Origin: a phage | Reading direction: 5' to 3' (one strand) | Sequence record: PZ445453.1 | DNA: 64,000 bases | Shown here: one piece after another, positions 8,425 to 53,079 of the stretch | Position numbering within the stretch: position 1 is the first letter of the stretch | Layout: every line of letters starts with the position of its first letter | Made by a program: the position numbers and the translations under genes | Notes under the pieces: model-generated | Databases searched by the model: none | Seen by the model: only the letters and a program-made list of their open reading frames with translations | What the model was told of the DNA's origin: nothing

Positions 8425-8594
8425 GTTATTATGTTGTACCCTATGCCAATAAGTGGAGAGTAAGAGAAACTTGTTTTCTATTCTCCTGGTGGGCTACGTT
8501 CGGAGATGGTTGTGGAAATGATACAGGGAAGCCTGTAGAGTATGACACAAAAGAAGAATGTGAACAGTGGATAAAATTAACACAAAGATGTTGA
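8421..8594 (+). CDS. small Cys-containing protein (sub-threshold ORF)
   Basis: 57-aa ORF not in supplied track; ATGA overlap with upstream gene. Confidence 0.3.
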   Translation: MSYYVVPYANKWRVRETCFLFSWWATFGDGCGNDTGKPVEYDTKEECEQWIKLTQRC

Positions 8595-8647
8595 CACGAT
8601 CTTAACTTCTTGTTAGTATCAATATGTACTAACGATAAGGAGGGTTT

Positions 8648-12798: not shown

Positions 12799-12822
12799 AA
12801 ACCCGCTTCGGCGGGTTTTCTT
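12799..12822 (+). terminator. intrinsic terminator
   Basis: CCCGC-TTCG-GCGGG hairpin then TTTTCTT. Confidence 0.7.
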
Positions 12823-12878: not shown

Positions 12879-13100
12879 ATGTCTGTAGTTGTAGAAGGTA
12901 GTATTGGTTTCTTAGTAGATAACCCTCACCCTTTCGTGGTTAAGGTTCATATTCAAGAAAAGGTAAGCAACAATACGTGGCTGTGCTTGTTAGATAGTAA
13001 GATACACTCTTATACAGAGGTTTATCTTCACACTTGGCAAATTGGTACGATAACAGCAGAGGATGAATTGATAATTGAACTATATGAACGAGATCTATAG
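12879..13100 (+). CDS. hypothetical protein
   Basis: 73-aa ORF with AGGAGG RBS. Confidence 0.45.
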   Translation: MSVVVEGSIGFLVDNPHPFVVKVHIQEKVSNNTWLCLLDSKIHSYTEVYLHTWQIGTITAEDELIIELYERDL

Positions 13101-13180
13101 ATGACTTTATTAGAGAGTATTGTAGTGTTAATCATCTTTATCATTGTTGTCATAGGATATTTTACAGAAGACTAAAATAA

Positions 13181-13213
13181 AGCCCCTAGAATCGCTTCTA
13201 GGGGCTTTTGTTT
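13181..13213. terminator. bidirectional intrinsic terminator at strand-switch
   Basis: 11-bp stem AGCCCCTAGAA/TTCTAGGGGCT flanked by A-run and T-run. Confidence 0.7.
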
Positions 13214-13275
13214 GCATAAGGTAGGGAAACGTATTACTAAAATAAAAAGTGCGTTAGAATGCGTTACAGGAGGTT

Positions 13276-13533
13276 TTAGGAATGCATAAAATCTTCTTCA
13301 GGACAGGTTGAGAGATAAGAAATGCACGTTGGGACAACAACAACATTATCTTTAAGGTTTGCAACCAAACCTTTTGTAATCCCAGCTACTGCCCCGTTAA
13401 TATCTGCTTGACGGATACCAAAACCTTGTTGTGCGGATAGATAACAAAATCCCTCACCTTTCTGTTGATTATTATTGAAGTAATAAACGTAGTGCATCAT
13501 AAAATGGTCTTTAACGATTTGTTCTGTGGTCAT
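13276..13533 (-). CDS. hypothetical protein
   Basis: 85-aa ORF. Confidence 0.5.
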   Translation of the reverse strand: MTTEQIVKDHFMMHYVYYFNNNQQKGEGFCYLSAQQGFGIRQADINGAVAGITKGLVANLKDNVVVVPTCISYLSTCPEEDFMHS

Positions 13534-13544
13534 AATATTCTCCT

Positions 13545-13570
13545 ATAAGAAAAGGGGCTTTCGCCCCCTT
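13545..13570 (-). terminator. intrinsic terminator
   Basis: GGGGC-TTTC-GCCCC hairpin; T-run on minus strand. Confidence 0.6.
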
Positions 13571-13577
13571 GGTTAAG

Positions 13578-14390
13578 TTATTTAGTCAAATGATCTTCTA
13601 TCATTTTTATGAAAGCAGGATTGCTAAAAGCATCTGCGGCCTTTTCTCGATAAACAAAGACTCCTCTATCTTCGTAAAGAAGAGTTTCTTCGTAATTAAT
13701 TCCTGGGTTAACAACGATCATTTTTGTACCCATATTAAGTGCAGGGAATAATTCCCAATTAAAATTGATAACTTGGTTTGAACATCCTACTACTACAACC
13801 AAATCTTGCATGGTTAAAGTATCAAACAAGTGAGCCATATCTGCATACAAAGGTGCAGCCTCACCAAAAAATACAACATTAGGCTTCACCCAGTTATAAT
13901 CATCTATGTTTATACTGCTGTAACCAATATCTACCAGTGTCTTGTAATCTCCAGGATGCATACGATAAACTATTTCAGGAAGATATCCGTGCACGTGAAT
14001 AACAGAATCCCTGTCTACACCTGCTCGCTCTAGTAGATCATCGACGTTTGTTGTCAAGTTTACTACTTGGTTAGGATATTCCTTAAACCACTTTGCTATT
14101 TGAATATGTGCAGCATTAGGTTGTACATCTTTAAGCTCAACACGTCTTTTGTTATAAAATTCGTGTGTTTTGGCATACAAATCCATACCGTTCTCGTCTA
14201 CACCACCAACCACGGGAAGATCTGGAGATGTTCTAACACGATAACCTGCTTGGAAAGCTCCAATATCGCAGACCTCTTGTAAATCATATTCCTCCCATAA
14301 GGCACGACCACTATCTGTGTCTGTTCGGAATGTTCGAATCCCACTGTCTGCACTTAAACCAGCGCCACTGACAAAAATTACTCTTCGCAT
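13578..14390 (-). CDS. Sir2-family (sirtuin-like) NAD+-dependent enzyme lacking Zn-ribbon
   Basis: GAGLSADSGIRTFR, TTNVDDL and VHG motifs; no CxxC...CxxC module. Confidence 0.8.
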   Translation of the reverse strand: MRRVIFVSGAGLSADSGIRTFRTDTDSGRALWEEYDLQEVCDIGAFQAGYRVRTSPDLPVVGGVDENGMDLYAKTHEFYNKRRVELKDVQPNAAHIQIAKWFKEYPNQVVNLTTNVDDLLERAGVDRDSVIHVHGYLPEIVYRMHPGDYKTLVDIGYSSINIDDYNWVKPNVVFFGEAAPLYADMAHLFDTLTMQDLVVVVGCSNQVINFNWELFPALNMGTKMIVVNPGINYEETLLYEDRGVFVYREKAADAFSNPAFIKMIEDHLTK

Positions 14391-14947
14391 TCAATATCCT
14401 CTTCGTAATCATCATCCCAAGAAGATGCATCGTAACGCTCTTCCTCTTCGAAATCCCAATTAATTTCTACTCCAAAATCTAAAAACAATTTAACAATGTT
14501 TTCTGTAGAATAGTATTTATCATAAGCGTTAGCTAGTTCCCAATACTTGTCACTCAATTTTTTATAAGTAGGATCATTATAGTCATAATCTACTTTATAA
14601 CCATAGTCATACATCTCTTGTTCAGCTTTAAGCATAGCTTCTGGTGTAAGAAGATTAGGGAACGGACGATTTCTTTCTTTTAACTTAGAAGCGATCCAGT
14701 TTGCAACATTCGCCACTTCACCATCTCGATTATCACCTAAACAACTTGCATAATCTCCATCTTCGTAAGTGCCTAAATCCCCACTCACTTCATGTACAAT
14801 AGATGAATACGATCCACACGTTTCACAATCTGAAAAAGTGTCTACTGTTGTAATATCAATAGATAAAACTGGTAAAGCCATAGCTTCTTTCACACAAGCC
14901 TCCTCATATAATAACATGTCATCAAAACCCATATATCCTCCAGACAA
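14378..14947 (-). CDS. highly acidic hypothetical protein co-transcribed with Sir2-like gene
   Basis: 189 aa, Asp/Glu/Tyr-rich C-terminus; 13-nt overlap with Sir2 start. Confidence 0.55.
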   Translation of the reverse strand: MSGGYMGFDDMLLYEEACVKEAMALPVLSIDITTVDTFSDCETCGSYSSIVHEVSGDLGTYEDGDYASCLGDNRDGEVANVANWIASKLKERNRPFPNLLTPEAMLKAEQEMYDYGYKVDYDYNDPTYKKLSDKYWELANAYDKYYSTENIVKLFLDFGVEINWDFEEEERYDASSWDDDYEEDIECEE

Positions 14948-14968
14948 ATAAAGCCCCTGTTTGGGGCT
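14944..14968 (-). terminator. intrinsic terminator / 5' leader hairpin
   Basis: AGCCCC-TGTTT-GGGGCT hairpin; T-run on minus strand. Confidence 0.55.
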
Positions 14969-14985
14969 TTGGTTAAGTTTTACGG

Positions 14986-15015
14986 ATTATACCAGACTTT
15001 TAAGGTACTTGTCAA
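14986..15015 (-). promoter_or_regulatory. sigma70-consensus promoter (TTGACA-N18-TATAAT) on minus strand
   Basis: Reverse complement reads cccTTGACAagtaccttaaaagtctggTATAATccg. Confidence 0.55.
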
Positions 15016-15262
15016 GGGCTTCTTGATCACCTTGACAAACATAGCAACGGAAGTCTTGAGCAGAAGGTTCTTTGTCCTCGTCCCAATAGACAGTACCTTT
15101 ATAGCGTGAGCCTGGGAACTCGAAGTATGCCACATGAGTAATATGGTGTGGGCCACCCCAAAACTCTGTAAAAGTAAATTGAGGATACGCTGCTTTAACT
15201 GTATTTTCAAACCAAGTTTTACGATCTAATGCTTCGTTTATAAAATAAGCATGGCGTTCCAT
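14987..15262 (-). CDS. hypothetical protein
   Basis: 91-aa ORF. Confidence 0.5.
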   Translation of the reverse strand: MERHAYFINEALDRKTWFENTVKAAYPQFTFTEFWGGPHHITHVAYFEFPGSRYKGTVYWDEDKEPSAQDFRCYVCQGDQEALDKYLKSLV

Positions 15263-15311
15263 TTCATCCCAATCTTTCCAAACGCATCTACAAAGTTAAA
15301 CTCTAAACCTT

Positions 15312-15836
15312 TCATACAACCTCCTCGTAATTGTTATTGTGTTTTACTGTCTCAACATACAATAAAGATTCCATCTGTAATACATTACCAGAAATAATAA
15401 ACCCATAAGCCATTTCAGATGTGTCTATATCATATGCCCCGTCTTCCGGTTTAGCAAAGTGTAAAATTATTTCATCTGGGTTTTCTTCATCCCATATTTT
15501 AGAAATTTTCCGAACCAGAATATTAGCTAAAATAGTTGACATTCGGGATAAAGCTGTATCCTCATATCTTTTAAAACCTAACCAATAGAGGTTAAGAATT
15601 TCTACTTCTTCTTGTGTTAAGTTTTTGTCTAAAGTAATCAGATCTGTAGGATACATCGTTTCTGTTGAACCTACTATTACAAAACCTGGAGTGTTATGAA
15701 AAACAATCTTAACTTTATCACGTATGAAGTTTAAACCTTGTGCCTCAACTATATATTGTATTGTAGGTACAATATCGTTTGTTACATCAATAAAGCTATC
15801 TTTAATGACACTTATATTATTTCTGGACAAGACCAT
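15312..15836 (-). CDS. hypothetical protein
   Basis: 174-aa ORF. Confidence 0.5.
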   Translation of the reverse strand: MVLSRNNISVIKDSFIDVTNDIVPTIQYIVEAQGLNFIRDKVKIVFHNTPGFVIVGSTETMYPTDLITLDKNLTQEEVEILNLYWLGFKRYEDTALSRMSTILANILVRKISKIWDEENPDEIILHFAKPEDGAYDIDTSEMAYGFIISGNVLQMESLLYVETVKHNNNYEEVV

Positions 15837-16395
15837 TCTCCTCTAAAATAGGTTTAATAAATTCGAAGATTTGTTTTTTACTTTTACCTCGAATATTAAA
15901 ACAAGGAACATTAAACTTTTTAGCCAACATCCAAGCTGTTCTTGTACCACCTAAAGGATCTCCATTTTTATCTGTATTTGCACAAGCTAAAAGAAAACAA
16001 GATGGTTTTGGATTCTCAAGATCTCTGCCAAGAACTTGGTGGATATTTCTTTGATGTAATTTTTTAGCACCTTGAGATAATCTGTCCCAAGCTGGATGCA
16101 ATTCTTTTGCATATTGCAAGGTTAGAGCATAGTTTACACTATCTGGTCTGTCAAGAACAATAACCTCTCCCTCTATCTCATTACCTTTAAACGAAGGCCA
16201 AGGAATGTATATTTCTTTCTTTGTATTGTTTCCACTATCATACACCCCGCATTCAAATGCGGAATCTGCACCTTCTGCTTTACCAGATCGTAAAATGAAC
16301 CATGTAGATAACCATTTTGCAACAGCTACCATAGTGTCCCATTCTTCGTCTGTAATATCTCTGCTACCAACACCTGTGTAGAATAAATCGCTCAT
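15817..16395 (-). CDS. SLOG/DprA-like Rossmann-fold protein
   Basis: YTGVGSRDIT ... SGKAEGADSAFECG pattern; start set to ATG 16395 with AAGGAG RBS, the 38-aa extension in the track rejected. Confidence 0.5.
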   Translation of the reverse strand: MSDLFYTGVGSRDITDEEWDTMVAVAKWLSTWFILRSGKAEGADSAFECGVYDSGNNTKKEIYIPWPSFKGNEIEGEVIVLDRPDSVNYALTLQYAKELHPAWDRLSQGAKKLHQRNIHQVLGRDLENPKPSCFLLACANTDKNGDPLGGTRTAWMLAKKFNVPCFNIRGKSKKQIFEFIKPILEENGLVQK

Positions 16396-16405
16396 GGTTT
16401 TCTCC

Positions 16406-16726
16406 TTAACAAGTAATATTGGGAATAATACTGGGAGTAACAATTGGAGTAATAGGGTACGTAAACCAAGGGCTTCCAATTTCCCAAGGACTATAAGGTG
16501 TACGAGGATCAAATGGAGGCGTTACTTGAGGCTTTTTCCACATCTCCGCTAGTTGTTTCTTCCATTTATCCCTTGCTGTATCGTTATCTTCATCCAACTG
16601 CTCGTCATTATCTTTTATTTCTGATTTTGGAAATAAAAGCTCTTTGACTAACTCAACGTCTTCCGTTTCAATAGTAGTTTCTTTCGTAATATTCCCTACC
16701 GTCTCTTTAATTGTGACTTTATACAT
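16406..16726 (-). CDS. hypothetical protein
   Basis: 106-aa ORF with GAGGAGG RBS. Confidence 0.45.
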   Translation of the reverse strand: MYKVTIKETVGNITKETTIETEDVELVKELLFPKSEIKDNDEQLDEDNDTARDKWKKQLAEMWKKPQVTPPFDPRTPYSPWEIGSPWFTYPITPIVTPSIIPNITC

Positions 16727-17472
16727 TAGTCCTCCTCTAAAGTAGAATAAAATTGTAACGTATTTGAATCATCAAAATATGCAAAGGTTAAATTACCATT
16801 GAAGCAAGATCCTGTATCCATATATACCCTATTACTGCTAATTACAGGTTTAGGAACATAAGAATGCCCGTGAAATACATAATCTACTCCTGAAACTCTA
16901 GGAAGAAGAATTCCTTCAAGTGCGCAATCTATCATATCACGATCCCACATTAAAGATTCTGTGAATCGAGATACTTGTTCTTTATTCATATTCGAACAAA
17001 ATGGCAAAACTTCCGTCACTGGCAGATGTTCCAAAACTGAAGGATATCCTCCGTGAATAAAGCCTAGTTTCATATTACGATAATTGACAACAAGTACAAC
17101 AGGTAAGTCTTCTAGCATCAAAGCAAGAGCAGTTGCACCTTCTTCTCCACACTCGTTTAAAACTGTATGGCCTCCGTTCTGAAACCAACATTCGTAATAT
17201 CGCCTATCACCTTCTAGCAACCCTTTAATCATCATATCTTCGTGGTTCCCACGGATACCATAACGATTTAGCTTTCTGGTGAATTCAACAACACAACGAA
17301 AATTCTGCTTGCCGCGATCTGTAAGATCTCCTAAAGATACAACAACATCTTGATCTCGGATACCTAAAGTATTAACACCTTTCTGGTACAAATCAAAGCA
17401 ACCATGTAAATCACCAATAATAAACAGGTCTTGATCATCTTTTACACTAATTTCTTGATATACTAGCATCAA
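16726..17472 (-). CDS. Ser/Thr protein phosphatase (calcineurin-like metallophosphoesterase)
   Basis: GDLHGCFD, GDLTDRG, GNHE motifs in order. Confidence 0.85.
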   Translation of the reverse strand: MMLVYQEISVKDDQDLFIIGDLHGCFDLYQKGVNTLGIRDQDVVVSLGDLTDRGKQNFRCVVEFTRKLNRYGIRGNHEDMMIKGLLEGDRRYYECWFQNGGHTVLNECGEEGATALALMLEDLPVVLVVNYRNMKLGFIHGGYPSVLEHLPVTEVLPFCSNMNKEQVSRFTESLMWDRDMIDCALEGILLPRVSGVDYVFHGHSYVPKPVISSNRVYMDTGSCFNGNLTFAYFDDSNTLQFYSTLEED

Positions 17473-22685: not shown

Positions 22686-22708
22686 TAAAAGGGGCTTTCG
22701 CCCCTTTG
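22686..22708 (-). terminator. intrinsic terminator (bidirectional-looking)
   Basis: AGGGGC-TTTC-GCCCCT hairpin with T-runs on both sides. Confidence 0.6.
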
Positions 22709-35773: not shown

Positions 35774-35796
35774 AAAGGGGCTTTCGCCCCTTTTTA
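35774..35796. terminator. bidirectional intrinsic terminator
   Basis: GGGGC-TTTC-GCCCC hairpin flanked by A-run and T-run. Confidence 0.65.
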
Positions 35797-46941: not shown

Positions 46942-47835
46942 ATGAAAGTTAGTATTCTACATGGTGTTGACTGTTATGTTACTGATGTAGACGTTAAAGT
47001 GTTTACATTCTCTGGTGGAGAACAACATGTTCAATTAGATACGAACCTGTCAGGTTTCAATCATGCTACAGACAGAATCTTACTCACTTTAGAAGTAAGA
47101 TCTGCTAAAGACTTGATGACTTTGGTTATGACTAAGAATGCATTGGACAATATGCTGTATCATAAACCATATTGTGTTGATTTACTCATGTTGTATGTAC
47201 CGTATGCACGACAAGACAGAGTGTGTGAGCCTGGGGAAGCATTCGGAGTTAAAGCATTTGCTTCTATAATTAATTCATTAAATTTCTCACGTGTTATCGT
47301 TGCTGATCCACATAGTGATGTTACTCCAGCAGTGTTTGACAGACTTTGTGTAATACCTCAAGAAGAGATTGCTTACGAAACTTTAAAATGGAAGTTACGT
47401 ATGGAGAATTTTGCTCTTGTTAGCCCTGATGGTGGTGCTCTTAAGAAAATATTTAAATTATCTAAGAAAATGGCTTTAGATGTGTTCTGTGCAGAGAAGG
47501 TTAGAGATACCGCAACAGGTGCTATTGTTCGTACAGACATTTCTGTACAGGATTTCAATAAGCGTAACCTGATGATCGTAGATGATATCTGTGATGGTGG
47601 TAGAACTTTTATTGAGTTGGCTAAAGTGCTACGTGCTCGTAACGCAGGTAAGATTGAGTTGTATGTTACACACGGTATCTTTTCTAAAGGTCTTAAAGAG
47701 TTAAGTGAGCACTTTGACTGCATTCATTCTCTTAATGTGTGGGAAGATAACATCCAAGAAGATTCCGGTGTTCTTGTTAAGAATCAGTCAGATTTGCAGC
47801 AACAAATTGTATCTCCATACGTGTGGAATTTTTAA
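46942..47835 (+). CDS. prs: ribose-phosphate pyrophosphokinase (PRPP synthetase)
   Basis: MIVDDICDGGRTF PRPP-binding loop, ~297 aa. Confidence 0.8.
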   Translation: MKVSILHGVDCYVTDVDVKVFTFSGGEQHVQLDTNLSGFNHATDRILLTLEVRSAKDLMTLVMTKNALDNMLYHKPYCVDLLMLYVPYARQDRVCEPGEAFGVKAFASIINSLNFSRVIVADPHSDVTPAVFDRLCVIPQEEIAYETLKWKLRMENFALVSPDGGALKKIFKLSKKMALDVFCAEKVRDTATGAIVRTDISVQDFNKRNLMIVDDICDGGRTFIELAKVLRARNAGKIELYVTHGIFSKGLKELSEHFDCIHSLNVWEDNIQEDSGVLVKNQSDLQQQIVSPYVWNF

Positions 47836-47845
47836 ATAATAAGTG

Positions 47846-47874
47846 TTGACAATAGGGAGTATGCTTAGTAAGAT
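47846..47874 (+). promoter_or_regulatory. sigma70-like promoter TTGACA-N17-TAAGAT
   Basis: Read upstream of Nampt gene. Confidence 0.55.
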
Positions 47875-47906
47875 ACTCCCACACTAACAAACAAGGAGAC
47901 ATAACT

Positions 47907-49640
47907 ATGAATATTTTTGCACCTTTTGCTACTGATTGGTATAAACCTGGTCACAAGCAGATGTACAACCAAAATACAAAACTCATTTTCTCTAATTTAA
48001 CTCCTCGTAATGATAAAAACTTTGCACACTATGCAGATCGTGAAGCACGTGGTGTCATTGTTTTAGGTATTCGTCGAGCAGTAACCGATGCTCTTGTAAC
48101 TATGTGGGACGGCTTCTTTAAAATGTCTCGTAGTGCAGCAGTAAATAAATTTTATCGTATGTCTAAGAATGCATTAGGTGCTTCTGCTCCTTCTGCTGAG
48201 TGTTGGGGTGAATTGCACGATTTAGGTTATCTTCCGCTGGAAGTTCGATCTCTGCCGGAAGGTGTTTTGTGTCCTATTGGTGTTCCTGTGTTTACTGTGC
48301 ATAATACTTTAGAAAAATTCTTTTGGTTAACTAACTATGTGGAAACACTGTTGTCAGATGAAACTTGGAAGACAATGACTAATGCCACAGCAGCTTTTCA
48401 GTATAAGCGTATCGCTATGGCATATGCGATGGCAACGTGTGATAATATTGATCACGTTAACTTCCAGTGTCATGATTTTAGCCTACGTGGTTTAAGCAAT
48501 ATCGAAGATGGTTATAAGAGTGGTATCGCTCATTTGGCATCTTTCACAGGAACAGATAATATTCTGGCTATTGAAACTGTGCATGATTATTATGGTATTG
48601 ATTATGATCAGTTTGTTGCAGGTTCTATTCCGGCAACAGAACATTCAGTAGCAACAACTAACATTGGAGCTATTGTTGAAGATCTGAAGAAACATTTCCC
48701 ACATCTTAAAGATGATGTAGATGGGCTTCGTTATGTAGCAGAAAAAGAGTTTCTTCGTCGTTATATCGAAGAAATTGTTCCAGAAGGTTTTTGTTCATAT
48801 GTAGCAGACTCTTATGACTATTGGGCTGTATTGACTCGCATTCTGGTAGAATTGAAAGATTCCATTATGTCACGAAATGGTCGTCTTGTTATTCGTCCAG
48901 ATTCAGGAGATCCGGTTAAAGTTGTTGCAGGATACAATGTTGAATCTTTTGATAACTATGAAGACCTCTTAAATAATGGTATTGCGACAGCCACTGAAGT
49001 AGTTCATTTGGCTGATGTTAATAAGTATTACAATGTTCTTCAGGATTGCAGCGTTGCTGATTGTATTGACGAAACTTATGAGATTCCTTATTGTGAAGCA
49101 GTAGGTTCTATTCAAATCCTTTGGGAAGTGTTTGGTGGTACTATCAACCGAAAAGGCTACAAGGTTCTTGATCAGCATATCGGTATGATTTATGGCGATT
49201 CTATTACTGTTGAACGAGAACACGAAATCTTACGCCGACTGAAGAAGAAAGGTTTTGCAGCTTCCAATATTGTATTTGGTGTTGGTAGTTATACTTATCA
49301 GTTCAATACACGAGATACTTTTGGTTTTGCTGTTAAAGCAACAGGTAGTATTATCGGTGAACACGAGATTTTGGTAAGTAAAGAGCCTAAAACTGATCCT
49401 GGTAAACGCTCTGCAAAAGGTTTTATTAAGGTTGTTAAGGATGCCAATGGTAATCTCTCTCTTGTAGATAATCTTTCTTTTAAAGATATCCAGGATGAAG
49501 ACAATGAATTACAAGTTATCTTCAAGGATGGTAAGGTTATTATACCACAAGTAGAAGGACGTGATGAAACATTCACTGATATCCGCAACCGTGTTGACGT
49601 AGAGGTTCTTCGTACTATGGGAACCATCCAGGTTGACTAA
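47907..49640 (+). CDS. nadV: nicotinamide phosphoribosyltransferase (Nampt)
   Basis: N-terminal TDWYKPGHKQMY resembles Nampt DSYKVTHYKQYP; SFTGTDN block. Confidence 0.88.
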   Translation: MNIFAPFATDWYKPGHKQMYNQNTKLIFSNLTPRNDKNFAHYADREARGVIVLGIRRAVTDALVTMWDGFFKMSRSAAVNKFYRMSKNALGASAPSAECWGELHDLGYLPLEVRSLPEGVLCPIGVPVFTVHNTLEKFFWLTNYVETLLSDETWKTMTNATAAFQYKRIAMAYAMATCDNIDHVNFQCHDFSLRGLSNIEDGYKSGIAHLASFTGTDNILAIETVHDYYGIDYDQFVAGSIPATEHSVATTNIGAIVEDLKKHFPHLKDDVDGLRYVAEKEFLRRYIEEIVPEGFCSYVADSYDYWAVLTRILVELKDSIMSRNGRLVIRPDSGDPVKVVAGYNVESFDNYEDLLNNGIATATEVVHLADVNKYYNVLQDCSVADCIDETYEIPYCEAVGSIQILWEVFGGTINRKGYKVLDQHIGMIYGDSITVEREHEILRRLKKKGFAASNIVFGVGSYTYQFNTRDTFGFAVKATGSIIGEHEILVSKEPKTDPGKRSAKGFIKVVKDANGNLSLVDNLSFKDIQDEDNELQVIFKDGKVIIPQVEGRDETFTDIRNRVDVEVLRTMGTIQVD

Positions 49641-50053: not shown

Positions 50054-50083
50054 TTGACAACATAGCTAGTTATTTGCTAAGAT
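50054..50083 (+). promoter_or_regulatory. sigma70-like promoter TTGACA-N18-TAAGAT
   Basis: Read upstream of 50114 ORF. Confidence 0.5.
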
Positions 50084-50387: not shown

Positions 50388-50463
50388 GGTTCCATAGCTC
50401 ACTGACGAGAGCGCACACCTCATAAGTGTCGAGGGCAGGGATTGTAACCCTGGGGAACCACCA
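50388..50463 (+). tRNA. tRNA-Met/Ile2-type (anticodon CAT), non-canonical T-loop
   Basis: Acceptor GGTTCCA/GGGAACC, D-stem GCTC/GAGC, anticodon loop CTCATAA, T-stem CAGGG/CCCTG with loop ATTGTAA, encoded CCA. Confidence 0.5.
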
Positions 50464-52286: not shown

Positions 52287-52300
52287 ATATCAAAAGCCTC

Positions 52301-52330
52301 TTGACAAAGGGGCTAATAATATGTTAGAGT
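52301..52330 (+). promoter_or_regulatory. promoter TTGACA-N18-(TG)-TAGAGT
   Basis: cTTGACAaaggggctaataataTGtTAGAGT upstream of tRNA-Gly. Confidence 0.45.
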
Positions 52331-53003: not shown

Positions 53004-53079
53004 TGATAGTGTGAAGCTGGCGTTTCGAGTGCTTTCATAAGGCATTGCGAGAAGAGTTCGATTCTCTTACTATCAACCA
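53004..53079 (+). tRNA. tRNA with CAT anticodon (Met or Ile2-lysidine type)
   Basis: Acceptor TGATAGT/ACTATCA, anticodon loop TTCATAA, T-arm AAGAG-TTCGATT-CTCTT, CCA. Confidence 0.55.

What the first reader, a model, noticed from the sequence alone, without database searches (positions are those of the whole stretch)
14944..15015. Consensus sigma70 promoter firing directly into a terminator hairpin ahead of the acidic-protein/Sir2 operon
On the minus strand a perfect TTGACA-N18-TATAAT (15015 down to 14986) overlaps the stop codon of the upstream gene. About 11 nt after the predicted start lies the hairpin AGCCCC-TGTTT-GGGGCT followed by a T-run (14968 down to 14941), then the start of the acidic-protein gene. 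The arrangement could be an attenuator or a processing signal controlling expression of the Sir2-like operon.
Basis: seen in the sequence. Interest (0 to 1): 0.4.

Follow-up and report, generated by a model that had tools for sequence, protein, structure and literature searches.

The report
Phage promoter firing into leaky terminator
In a phi92-like E. coli phage, a textbook-perfect host-type promoter sits in the last codons of one gene and transcribes straight into a terminator-like hairpin before the next gene; this looks like a conserved, compact promoter-plus-stem-loop cassette of a kind already described in other phages, not a special switch for the Sir2 genes.

Summary
The window is Escherichia phage JohannJBalmer (Bas62, phi92-like). 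On the minus strand, TTGACA-N18-TGgTATAAT (15015-14986) is the only 12/12 sigma70 match in 64 kb (0.11 expected), and its -10 contains the upstream stop codon. An 8-bp hairpin (14970-14950) followed by TTTATTTGT starts at about +10 of the predicted transcript, and GGAGG and ATG follow.

The promoter, hairpin and T-tract order is kept in three Stephanstirmvirinae lineages. The promoter hexamers are invariant, the stem is kept, ten different loops are seen, and the leader sequence is not conserved. The hairpin scores as a moderate intrinsic terminator and forms with probability about 1.0. With only about 9 nt ahead of it, no antiterminator fold is possible. Rfam finds nothing, no Q-like protein or pause element is found, and Sir2 genes in other phage families lack the module.

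Promoter-before-hairpin junctions are enriched in this genome (6 of 17, P=0.004). This site is the only one where a full, U-tailed hairpin lies inside the promoter's own transcript.

Best reading: a PeSL-like transcription-unit boundary with constitutive self-attenuation. All function is inferred, because no transcript data exist. It is a new member of a known kind, of modest interest.

The parts
15010..15015 (-). -35 hexamer TTGACA, inside the codons Leu-Asp-Lys of the upstream ORF
   Evidence: Invariant in all relatives retrieved by protein homology.
14993..14994 (-). TG of an extended -10 (TGgTATAAT)
   Evidence: Kept in Justusliebigvirus, Phapecoctavirus and Klebsiella phage KP13-26, lost in Klebsiella phage phi1_175008.
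14986..14991 (-). -10 hexamer TATAAT; contains the stop codon TAA (14989-14987) of bas62_0185
   Evidence: It is TATAGT (stop codon TAG) in Phapecoctavirus and the Klebsiella phages.
14971..14979 (-). Predicted transcription start (A at 14979, give or take 2 nt) and the 9-nt unpaired leader AAACTTAAC(C)
   Evidence: Inferred from the usual 7-nt distance between the -10 and +1; not measured. The sequence is not conserved between lineages, but the length (8-9 nt) is.
14950..14970 (-). Hairpin: 8-bp stem (AAAGCCCC/GGGGCTTT, five G-C pairs) and 5-nt loop AAACA; +10 to +30 of the predicted transcript
   Evidence: dG -12.5 to -13.3 kcal/mol, pair probability 1.00. The stem is kept while ten different loops are seen in relatives.
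14944..14952 (-). T-rich tract TTTATTTGT, which overlaps the three closing A-T pairs of the stem
   Evidence: 6 T in the first 8 bases and a classical terminator score d = +10.2, comparable with the bidirectional terminator-like hairpin at 12799-12818 (+11.6). It is TTTTCTTTTAT (d = +27) in Phapecoctavirus.
14930..14941 (-). Shine-Dalgarno GGAGG (14941-14937) and the ATG (14932-14930) of bas62_0184
14987..15262 (-). Upstream ORF bas62_0185: the C-terminal 91 residues of the phi92 gp041 family (phrog_8514, unknown function), left after a 2.1-kb deletion
14378..14932 (-). bas62_0184, acidic protein (184 aa, pI 4.05, 46 Asp+Glu), phrog_9509, unknown function
13578..14390 (-). bas62_0183, Sir2-family protein; overlaps the end of bas62_0184 by 13 nt
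   Evidence: PF02146, E = 3e-22; phrog_2162.
13551..13570 (-). Next hairpin downstream (AAGGGGGC-GAAA-GCCCCTTT plus TCTTATAGG), between Sir2 and bas62_0182
   Evidence: d = +14.5.
13179..13208 (-). 13-bp terminator at the end of the minus-strand gene block
   Evidence: dG -21.1 kcal/mol, d = +26.7.

Best explanation
This is a compact transcription-unit boundary of the 'promoter plus stem-loop cassette' type.

The proposed mechanism has four steps.
1. A near-perfect sigma70 early promoter is written into the last 29 nt of the upstream ORF, so the host RNA polymerase can use it without phage factors.
2. The 54-nt spacer holds an intrinsic-terminator-type hairpin. This hairpin stops part of the transcription arriving from the roughly 30-kb upstream gene block.
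3. Because the hairpin lies at +10 to +30 of the promoter's own transcript, it also stops a fraction of those transcripts. That would release an RNA of about 35 nt.
4. The remaining transcripts read through into the acidic-protein and Sir2 genes.

The net effect would be unregulated (constitutive) self-attenuation of a very strong promoter, together with insulation from upstream transcription.

Shown here: the sequence elements, their statistical rarity, their conservation, and the absence of any alternative fold.
Inferred: promoter activity, the start site, and the fraction of transcripts that terminate.
For: Promoter:
- It is the only 12/12 match in 64 kb (0.11 expected) and has an extended -10.
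- The hexamers are invariant, apart from TAA to TAG in the -10, in three lineages found by protein homology. This holds although the encoded C-terminus changes from EALDKYLKSLV to EAFDNYMKTVV and 6 of the 18 spacer positions differ.
- The promoter-bearing bins are the most conserved part of the gene between phi92 and Phapecoctavirus (86-100%). Identity drops to 0-30% immediately downstream.

Hairpin as terminator:
- It has a GC-rich 8-bp stem followed directly by a T-rich tract. It scores d = +10.2, similar to the bidirectional terminator-like hairpin at 12799-12818 (+11.6).
- The Phapecoctavirus orthologue has a different, longer stem (11 bp) and a better U-tract (d = +27).
- Ten different loop sequences occur with the stem preserved.

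No switch:
- The hairpin pair probability is 1.00 in the nascent leader, and the leader is only 9 nt.
- The leader is not conserved and Rfam has no match.

Genome-wide pattern:
- 6 of 17 intergenic coding-strand hairpins have a promoter of at least 9/12 ending no more than 45 nt upstream (background 0.095, P = 0.0036).
- Promoters downstream of hairpins are not enriched (2 of 17, P = 0.49).

Precedents:
- PeSL cassettes of T4-type phages have very strong promoters and stem-loops that terminate as well as rrnB T1 (PMC2839356).
- 42 terminators mapped in 5'UTRs right after promoters in six Pseudomonas phages give short RNAs plus read-through (PMC10914365).
- In the E. coli greA leader, an intrinsic terminator 40-60 nt from the start stops two thirds of transcripts (PMC2836576).
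Against: - No transcript data exist for this phage subfamily. Promoter use, start site and termination efficiency are all unmeasured.
- The U-tract is interrupted (UUUAUUUGU), so termination may be weak.
- The promoter lies in coding sequence, so part of its conservation may be protein constraint. For the Klebsiella comparison alone, 11 of 12 identical hexamer positions against a 67% identical spacer is only marginal (my estimate, P about 0.06).
- Relatives L012-L017 were retrieved with the promoter pattern itself, so they say nothing independent about promoter conservation.
- At the other five promoter-hairpin junctions, the promoter's own transcript would avoid termination: the start falls inside the stem at three, and the tail is T-poor at two. 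Why self-attenuation should be kept at this one site is therefore unexplained.
Confidence: 0.5

Rival explanations
1. The hairpin is mainly an RNA stability or processing element. It would protect the 3' end of the upstream message after cleavage in the adjacent U-rich tract, or give structure just ahead of the ribosome-binding site. It would terminate little, and the promoter would simply drive the downstream genes.
For: - Nearly every intergenic gap of the minus-strand block has a GC-rich hairpin a few nucleotides before GGAGG, several with GAAA or UUCG tetraloops and some without a T-tract. This suggests a role beyond termination.
- The U-tract here is interrupted.
Against: - The T-rich tail is kept in three lineages although its sequence differs (TTTATTTGT, TTTTCTTTTAT, TTTATTCGT), and it is best in the lineage with the strongest stem. 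A pure stability hairpin has no need of it.
- With 8-9 unpaired nucleotides at the predicted 5' end, the hairpin is too far from the end to act as an ompA-type 5' protector (established knowledge: no more than about 2-4 unpaired nt).
- An 8-bp stem is not an RNase III substrate.
Confidence: 0.2
2. The terminator is a gate that a phage or host factor opens, in the manner of lambda PR'-tR'/Q or Pseudomonas AlpA. The promoter would fire constitutively into the terminator, and the Sir2 genes would be expressed only once polymerase is made termination-resistant.
For: - The order strong promoter, then terminator within 40 nt, then genes is the layout of Q-type systems. It is conserved in three lineages, with a stronger terminator in Phapecoctavirus.
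- It is the only junction in the window where the promoter's transcript contains a full U-tailed hairpin.
Against: - The gene directly upstream (gp041 family) has no Pfam match and belongs to an unknown-function PHROG.
- Bas62 keeps only the C-terminal 91 residues of that gene, yet keeps the module.
- No conserved -10-like pause element is present in the initially transcribed region.
- The spacer and leader, where a factor would have to bind or an RNA element would have to form, vary between lineages.
- I did not screen all phage proteins for antiterminators.
Confidence: 0.1
3. The promoter match is not used during infection, being either a coding-sequence coincidence or silenced once the polymerase is redirected. 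On this view the hairpin is simply the terminator of the upstream genes.
For: - The promoter lies wholly inside coding sequence, with no AT-rich UP element upstream.
- Part of its conservation could be protein constraint.
- The rV5 paper's in-silico analysis raises the possibility of altered promoter recognition: a T4-late-like motif upstream of late genes and a possible Srd-like anti-sigma homologue.
Against: - A 12/12 match plus TG is expected 0.11 times per window. Here it sits exactly at a gene end, pointing at the next gene.
- The hexamers survive amino-acid replacements on both sides (Leu to Phe keeps TT; Lys to Asn keeps A).
- Other promoters of this genome likewise overlap upstream stop codons.
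Confidence: 0.1
4. In addition to any transcriptional role (this is not exclusive of the other readings), the conserved promoter patch serves as a homologous-recombination joint for swapping neighbouring genes between phages, as proposed for PeSLs.
For: - Phage ESCO5 carries a phi92-type gp041 allele in a Phapecoctavirus backbone. The right-hand crossover lies between informative sites 1300 and 1321, and the -35 hexamer is at 1314-1319.
- Identity between genera drops from about 100% to under 30% exactly at the module.
- The gene downstream is variable: 35% identity between genera, and deleted in the Klebsiella phages.
Against: - This is one event only.
- The two other rearrangements nearby are not at cassettes. 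The Bas62 2.1-kb deletion lies between 25-nt repeats inside genes, and the loss of the acidic gene is internal to that gene.
- The cassettes of this genome are not long dispersed repeats. Only 20-26-nt hairpin families recur.
Confidence: 0.25

Closest known systems
PeSL (promoter-early stem-loop) cassettes of T4-type phages RB49 and phi1 (Arbiol et al. 2010, PMC2839356)
   Same: Both have a strong sigma70-consensus early promoter combined with a G/C-tract stem-loop, ending in an SD and a start codon. Both lie between small accessory genes. In both, the stem-loop position relative to the promoter varies between copies within one genome: downstream of the -10, overlapping the -10, or with the -35 in the loop. 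The stem-loops are thought to terminate or attenuate upstream transcription. One mosaic breakpoint falls in the cassette here.
   Different: The phage family is different (Stephanstirmvirinae) and there is no sequence homology. In PeSLs the stem-loop lies at or before the start site; here the complete hairpin plus U-tract is inside the promoter's own transcript. The promoter here lies in coding sequence without an AT-rich upstream region. The cassettes are not roughly 100-bp dispersed repeats. Mini-circle formation was not tested.
5'UTR premature-termination units mapped by ONT-cappable-seq in Pseudomonas phages (PMC10914365, PMC11512511)
   Same: A terminator lies immediately downstream of a phage promoter. 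In those phages this gives a short RNA with the same 5' end as a longer read-through message, and the arrangement is conserved within genera.
   Different: Those units were measured, and their short RNAs are 70-250 nt, some with conserved sequence. Here the predicted RNA is only about 35 nt, its single-stranded part is not conserved, and nothing has been measured.
E. coli greA leader terminator (GraL; PMC2836576)
   Same: A strong sigma70 promoter is followed within 40-60 nt by an intrinsic terminator that constitutively stops about two thirds of transcripts, independent of growth phase.
   Different: GraL is a host gene leader with an 11-bp stem, an AU7GCU2 tail and heterogeneous 3' ends. It may have a function as an RNA.
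Lambda PR'-tR' with Q antiterminator (established knowledge; AlpA analogue PMC9371919)
   Same: A constitutive promoter fires into a nearby terminator ahead of an operon.
   Different: No Q-like gene, Q-binding element or conserved sigma-dependent pause element is found here. The terminator is also much closer: +36 here against +194 in lambda (from memory).

Membership tests
E. coli sigma70 promoter | -35 TTGACA and -10 TATAAT separated by 17 +/- 1 nt | tested here: met
   12/12 with an 18-nt spacer. It is the only such site in the window (0.11 expected).
E. coli sigma70 promoter | Extended -10 (TGn) or other auxiliary elements | tested here: met
   TGgTATAAT is present. There is no AT-rich UP element; the upstream sequence is GC-containing coding sequence.
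E. coli sigma70 promoter | Conserved in relatives beyond the coding requirement | tested here: inconclusive
   The hexamers are invariant in three lineages despite flanking amino-acid changes, and these are the most conserved bins of the gene. Only about three independent lineages are available, and the promoter lies within an ORF.
E. coli sigma70 promoter | A mapped primary 5' end or reporter activity | not testable with these tools
   No transcriptome was found for the subfamily.
Intrinsic (Rho-independent) terminator | GC-rich stem of 5-14 bp with a 3-8 nt loop | tested here: met
   8 bp (five G-C pairs), 5-nt loop, dG -12.5 to -13.3 kcal/mol, z = -3.35.
Intrinsic (Rho-independent) terminator | U-rich tract of 7-9 nt directly after the stem | tested here: met
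   TTTATTTGT, interrupted, with 6 T in the first 8 bases. The d'Aubenton-Carafa-type score is +10.2 (threshold 0), computed with modern energy parameters and therefore approximate.
Intrinsic (Rho-independent) terminator | Structure conserved while sequence varies | tested here: met
   Ten loop variants with the stem kept. In Phapecoctavirus the stem is a different 11-bp one with a T-G wobble pair and a better U-tract.
Intrinsic (Rho-independent) terminator | Measured RNA release | not testable with these tools
   Needs in vitro transcription or Term-seq.
Regulated transcription attenuator or riboswitch | Leader able to form an alternative (antiterminator) structure, or a leader peptide | tested here: not met
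   About 9 nt precede the stem, the hairpin probability is 1.00 in the nascent leader, and the leader has no ATG.
Regulated transcription attenuator or riboswitch | Conserved leader sequence or a match to a known RNA family | tested here: not met
   The leader is the least conserved part of the module. Rfam gives no match in the region even at E <= 1.
Lambda Q-type promoter-proximal antitermination | Q-family protein encoded next to the promoter | tested here: not met
   The upstream gene family has no Pfam hit and belongs to phrog_8514, unknown function. It is truncated in Bas62. The other phage proteins were not screened.
Lambda Q-type promoter-proximal antitermination | -10-like sigma-dependent pause element in the initially transcribed region | tested here: not met
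   Only 2/6 matches, at different positions in two lineages, and none in the third.
ompA-type 5' stabilising stem-loop | Hairpin within about 2-4 nt of the 5' end | tested here: not met
   8-9 unpaired nt at the predicted 5' end in all lineages. This depends on the predicted start site.
PeSL cassette (T4-type phages) | Sigma70-consensus promoter plus stable G/C-tract stem-loop plus SD/ATG in one intergenic unit | tested here: met
.
PeSL cassette (T4-type phages) | Many copies per genome with the stem-loop at variable positions relative to the promoter | tested here: met
   Six promoter-then-hairpin junctions (P = 0.0036), plus copies with the -35 in the loop or with the hairpin spanning the -10.
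PeSL cassette (T4-type phages) | [quoted passage not shown] | tested here: not met
   Only 20-26-nt hairpin families recur. There is no AT-rich upstream region at this copy.
PeSL cassette (T4-type phages) | Acts as a recombination site for gene shuffling | tested here: inconclusive
   One crossover maps to the promoter patch in ESCO5. Two nearby rearrangements do not involve cassettes.

The most novel reading that the evidence does not exclude
The promoter-proximal terminator is a conserved gate rather than a passive leak. On this reading the perfect promoter floods the cell with an RNA hairpin of about 35 nt, and the acidic-protein and Sir2 genes are expressed only when an as-yet unknown phage or host condition relaxes termination. 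Examples would be a polymerase modification or a small antiterminator that does not resemble Q or N. That would be a new timing device in a phage family with no known transcription programme.
Probability: 0.1. Interest if true: 0.55.

Novelty: new member of a known kind. Interest (0 to 1): 0.3.

Why it matters
If the reading is right, it gives a first, testable map of one transcription-unit boundary in the phi92-like phages, which are used in the BASEL collection and in phage therapy work and have no transcript data at all.

It extends the promoter-plus-stem-loop cassette idea from T4-type phages to an unrelated myovirus subfamily. It also points to one unusual copy, where the promoter's own transcript must pass a real terminator.

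In practical terms, the 90-bp module is a candidate compact 'strong promoter plus built-in attenuator and insulator' part. The ESCO5 crossover suggests that such patches may guide gene exchange between genera.

It does not reveal a new regulatory principle or anything specific about phage Sir2 biology.

Tried and rejected
- Rfam search of 13000-16000 at E <= 1: nothing in the region. The three weak hits elsewhere are below threshold.
- Classical attenuator: rejected, because no alternative fold is possible.
- Small regulatory RNA with a 5' seed: rejected, because the 9-nt single-stranded leader differs completely between lineages (AAACUUAAC, AUCUGAAC, AAUUAAUA).
- Q-type antitermination: no support from Pfam or PHROGs for the upstream gene and no pause element.
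- 'Created by the Bas62 deletion': rejected. phi92 has the same module, and the deletion lies 250 nt upstream, between 25-nt repeats.
- 'Sir2-specific control': rejected after looking at T5-like and rV5-like Sir2 loci.
- Column-wise covariation counting on the MAFFT alignment: abandoned, because the 5' arm was misaligned by one column between groups. I folded each variant separately instead.
- My first hairpin-extraction script was confused by outer pairs and was redone.
- Search for transcriptomes of Stephanstirmvirinae: none found. The rV5 paper holds only in-silico predictions. The T4 genome review (PMC150520) is not held.
- IMG/VR search with the acidic protein gave only two near-identical loci.
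- The scan with the promoter pattern gave six loci that are biased for the promoter. I used them only for hairpin variation.
Full report
**Identity of the window**

Window 13000-17000 is 100% identical to Escherichia phage JohannJBalmer (Bas62, MZ501084.1; Justusliebigvirus, Stephanstirmvirinae), a phi92-like myovirus. It is 97-98% identical to about 50 relatives. Over window 7689-54519 the window matches the record except for one 1-nt deletion, and it runs on past the end of the record.

The finding lies in a gene block of about 33 kb transcribed on the minus strand (window about 46.5 kb down to 13.2 kb). This block holds nucleotide-metabolism, replication and accessory genes.

**The observation**

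- TTGACA at 15015-15010, then an 18-nt spacer.
- TATAAT at 14991-14986, preceded by TG at 14994-14993.
- The stop codon TAA of the upstream ORF at 14989-14987, inside the -10.
- A hairpin: AAAGCCCC (14970-14963), loop AAACA, GGGGCTTT (14957-14950).
- TTTATTTGT (14952-14944), GGAGG (14941-14937) and ATG (14932-14930).

The T-run is interrupted.

The promoter is the only exact TTGACA-N16-18-TATAAT in the window on either strand. The expectation is 0.11, and 10 of 100 shuffles give at least one. It is also the best hit of two independent scans. The hairpin segment folds at -13.3 kcal/mol, against -5.8 +/- 2.2 for shuffles (z = -3.35).

With the usual 7-nt distance from the -10, the start would be the A at 14979. 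The stem would then span +10 to +30 and the U-tract would end at +36. The start site is inferred, not measured.

**Surroundings**

The upstream ORF, bas62_0185, is the C-terminal 91 residues of the phi92 gp041 family (phrog_8514, unknown function, no Pfam match).

Relative to phi92, Bas62 lacks 2.1 kb: the Dcm methylase block gp044-gp042, most of gp045 and two thirds of gp041. The junction lies between two imperfect 25-nt direct repeats, about 250 nt upstream of the promoter. phi92 itself has the same promoter and hairpin after an intact gp041, so the deletion did not create the module.

Downstream come four features:
- An acidic protein of unknown function (184 aa, pI 4.05).
- A Sir2-family protein (PF02146, E = 3e-22).
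- A second hairpin, then an 85-aa ORF.
- The strong terminator that closes the block.

**Conservation**

I retrieved relatives by protein homology, so these are unbiased with respect to the DNA motifs.
- Justusliebigvirus: phi92 and two IMG/VR contigs.
- Phapecoctavirus: phAPEC8_ev052, TSP7_1, ESCO5 and phiWec179. Their acidic protein is only about 35% identical.
- Two Klebsiella phages of the same subfamily. Their gp041 homologue is about 60% identical.

All of them have the same order and almost the same distances: TTGACA, 18 nt, TATAAT or TATAGT (the stop codon becomes TAG), 14-15 nt, hairpin, T-rich tract, SD, ATG.

In the Klebsiella phages the encoded C-terminus has changed from EALDKYLKSLV to EAFDNYMKTVV, and 6 of the 18 spacer positions differ. 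The hexamers are untouched: Leu to Phe keeps TT, and Lys to Asn keeps A.

Between phi92 and Phapecoctavirus, the last ~70 nt of the gene are its most conserved part (86-100% identity, against 50-80% elsewhere). Identity falls to 0-30% immediately after the -10.

This supports selection on the promoter. However, with about three independent lineages and a promoter inside an ORF, coding constraint cannot be fully separated out.

Six more loci were found with a pattern built from the promoter itself. They are biased for the promoter and I used them only for the hairpin.

Across all variants the stem is kept, and it is a different, longer 11-bp stem in Phapecoctavirus. Ten different loops occur: AAACA, AAGCA, AATCA, CAAGCA, TCCTT, TTCCT, TCTAT, TTGATT, TTT and CTT. 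The leader ahead of the stem is unrelated in sequence between lineages. That is the signature of a structure under selection, and not of a conserved RNA sequence.

**Is the hairpin a terminator?**

I computed a classical hairpin-plus-T-tract score with present-day energy parameters, so it is approximate. The values are:
- +10.2 for the Bas62 hairpin.
- +11.6 for the bidirectional terminator-like hairpin at 12799-12818.
- +26.7 for the terminator that ends the block.
- +27 for the Phapecoctavirus orthologue, which has an 11-bp stem and TTTTCTTTTAT.

The T-rich tail is present in all lineages although its sequence differs. I read this as a moderate intrinsic terminator. The efficiency is unknown.

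**Is it a regulated attenuator or processing site?**

- In the nascent leader the hairpin forms with probability 1.00. Only about 9 nt precede it, so no competing fold is possible.
- There is no leader peptide, and Rfam has no match at E <= 1.
- The leader sequence is not conserved, so a small RNA with a seed is unlikely.
- An 8-bp stem is not an RNase III substrate (established knowledge).
- The hairpin is too far from the predicted 5' end (8-9 unpaired nt) to act as an ompA-type 5' protector (established knowledge).
- For a lambda-Q-like gate I found no Q-like protein upstream and no conserved -10-like pause element in the first 20 transcribed bases. I did not screen every phage protein.

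**Is it about Sir2?**

In the Klebsiella phages the acidic gene is reduced to a 17-codon remnant, yet the module stays at the end of the gp041 homologue. In a T5-like phage and an rV5-like phage, Sir2 is packed inside an operon with a 0-8 nt gap or overlap to the upstream gene and no promoter or hairpin. The module therefore belongs to this junction in this subfamily. It is not a property of phage Sir2 genes in general.

**A genome-wide pattern**

In the annotated 46.8 kb, 17 GC-rich hairpins lie in intergenic gaps on the coding strand, most of them a few nucleotides before GGAGG. Six of them have a promoter match of at least 9/12 whose -10 ends no more than 45 nt upstream. The background is 0.095, giving a binomial P of 0.0036. 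Promoters downstream of hairpins are not enriched (2 of 17, P = 0.49).

Other layouts also occur:
- Promoters that use the upstream TGA stop codon as part of TTGACA.
- A -35 placed in a hairpin loop.
- A hairpin spanning the -10.
- One classical terminator-then-promoter junction.

The six promoter-then-hairpin junctions are not alike.
- In three (hairpins at about 38136, 34602 and 19292) the hairpin starts at or inside the -10. The start site then falls inside the stem and the promoter's own transcript cannot form it.
- In two (about 32392 and 20728) the tail is T-poor (d below 0 for 20728).
- Only the reported site combines a top-scoring promoter with a complete, U-tailed hairpin inside its own transcript.

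**Comparison with what is known**

The closest described system is the PeSL, the 'promoter-early stem-loop' of T4-type phages RB49 and phi1. PeSLs are strong sigma70-consensus promoters joined to G/C-tract stem-loops, ending in an SD and ATG, with the stem-loop in five different positions relative to the promoter.
- The stem-loop terminates as well as rrnB T1.
- The promoters are so strong that clones pick up down-mutations.
- The cassettes are proposed to act as recombination linkers for shuffling accessory genes (PMC2839356).

Terminators directly after promoters have also been mapped experimentally. In six Pseudomonas phages there are 42 such cases, mostly giving a short RNA plus a read-through message (PMC10914365). 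The same is seen in phage 201phi2-1 (PMC11512511). In E. coli, the greA leader terminator lies 40-60 nt from the start and constitutively stops two thirds of transcripts (PMC2836576). Promoter-proximal intrinsic termination is therefore a documented arrangement in both phages and E. coli.

The present module differs from PeSLs in four ways. It lies in another phage family. It lacks the AT-rich upstream region and the ~100-bp repeat character; only 20-26-nt hairpin families recur. And it places the whole terminator after the start site.

**A hint of the recombination role**

Phage ESCO5 is Phapecoctavirus-type on both sides but carries a phi92-type gp041 allele (90-100% identity). The right-hand crossover lies between informative sites 1300 and 1321 of my alignment, and the -35 hexamer is at 1314-1319. 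This is one event only. The two other rearrangements nearby do not use cassettes.

**Verdict**

There is no sign of a regulated switch or of Sir2-specific control.

The best explanation, with confidence about 0.5, is a conserved compact transcription-unit boundary of the promoter-plus-stem-loop kind. It would insulate the acidic-protein/Sir2 genes from upstream transcription and give them a strong but self-attenuated early promoter.

The rivals are:
- A mainly RNA-stability hairpin (0.2).
- Factor-gated antitermination (0.1).
- An unused promoter (0.1).

A recombination-joint role may be added to any of these (0.25). All functional statements are inferences from sequence. The experiments listed under next steps would settle them quickly.

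Noticed in passing
window 15238-15320 (junction), compared with L001 3186-5663: Bas62 lacks 2.1 kb present in phi92: the Dcm cytosine methylase gp043, gp044, gp042, most of gp045 and two thirds of gp041. The junction lies between two imperfect ~25-nt direct repeats, ATGCG(TT)TGGRAAGRWTGGGATGAA. It leaves a 25-aa gp045 remnant (bas62_0186) and a 91-aa gp041 C-terminal ORF (bas62_0185) in different frames. The deletion also removed a classical terminator-then-promoter junction (UUCG hairpin, then TTGACA-17-TAAACT).
   Followed up: yes
L007 (phage ESCO5) about 1860-2420: ESCO5 is a mosaic: a phi92-type gp041 allele (90-100% identity) sits in a Phapecoctavirus backbone (97-100% identity on both sides). 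The right-hand crossover lies in the 20 nt that include the -35 hexamer of the promoter studied here.
   Followed up: yes
L010 2690-2745 and L011 2711-2766: In two Klebsiella phages of the subfamily, the acidic-protein gene is reduced to a 17-codon remnant (MNFQDMINYQTQCVLNS*) that still resembles the N-terminus of the Bas62 protein. Sir2 follows directly.
   Followed up: partly
window about 36930: The window has a 1-nt deletion relative to MZ501084.1 (CCATCAT against CCATTCAT), inside bas62_0226 (putative 5'-exonuclease), which would shift its frame. The window also continues past the end of the GenBank record at window 54519, so it comes from a permuted or different copy of the genome.
   Followed up: partly
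window 50388-50463 and 53004-53079: ARAGORN finds two tRNA-Met (CAT) genes that are not annotated in MZ501084.1. It finds 16 tRNA genes, against 14 annotated.
   Followed up: no
window 13551-13570, 22688-22707, 35774-35793; also 12799-12818: A dispersed family of near-identical intergenic hairpins, AAAGGGGC-GAAA-GCCCCTTT (GNRA tetraloop), occurs three times. There is also a UUCG-tetraloop hairpin. These are the same ultra-stable loop types known from T4 intercistronic regions.
   Followed up: partly
window about 38136-38113, 34602-34583, 19292-19271 (minus strand): At three junctions the hairpin begins at or inside the -10 of a sigma70-like promoter. The predicted start therefore falls inside the stem: upstream transcripts would see a hairpin, while the promoter's own transcripts would not.
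   Followed up: partly
window about 8591-8619, 50054-50083 and 52296-52330 (plus strand): Two promoters use the TGA stop codon of the upstream gene as part of TTGACA. Ahead of tRNA-Gly, the -35 hexamer sits in the loop of a hairpin (AGCCTC-TTGACAAA-GGGGCT).
   Followed up: no
window 14378-14932: bas62_0184 is annotated 'putative aminoacyl-tRNA synthetase' in GenBank. It has no Pfam match and falls in an unknown-function PHROG (phrog_9509). It is a very acidic protein (pI 4.05, 25% Asp+Glu).
   Followed up: partly
window about 46942-49640 and 13578-14390: The phage encodes a PRPP synthetase and a nicotinamide phosphoribosyltransferase (NAD salvage) about 33 kb from its Sir2-family NAD-consuming enzyme. 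A functional link was not examined.
   Followed up: no
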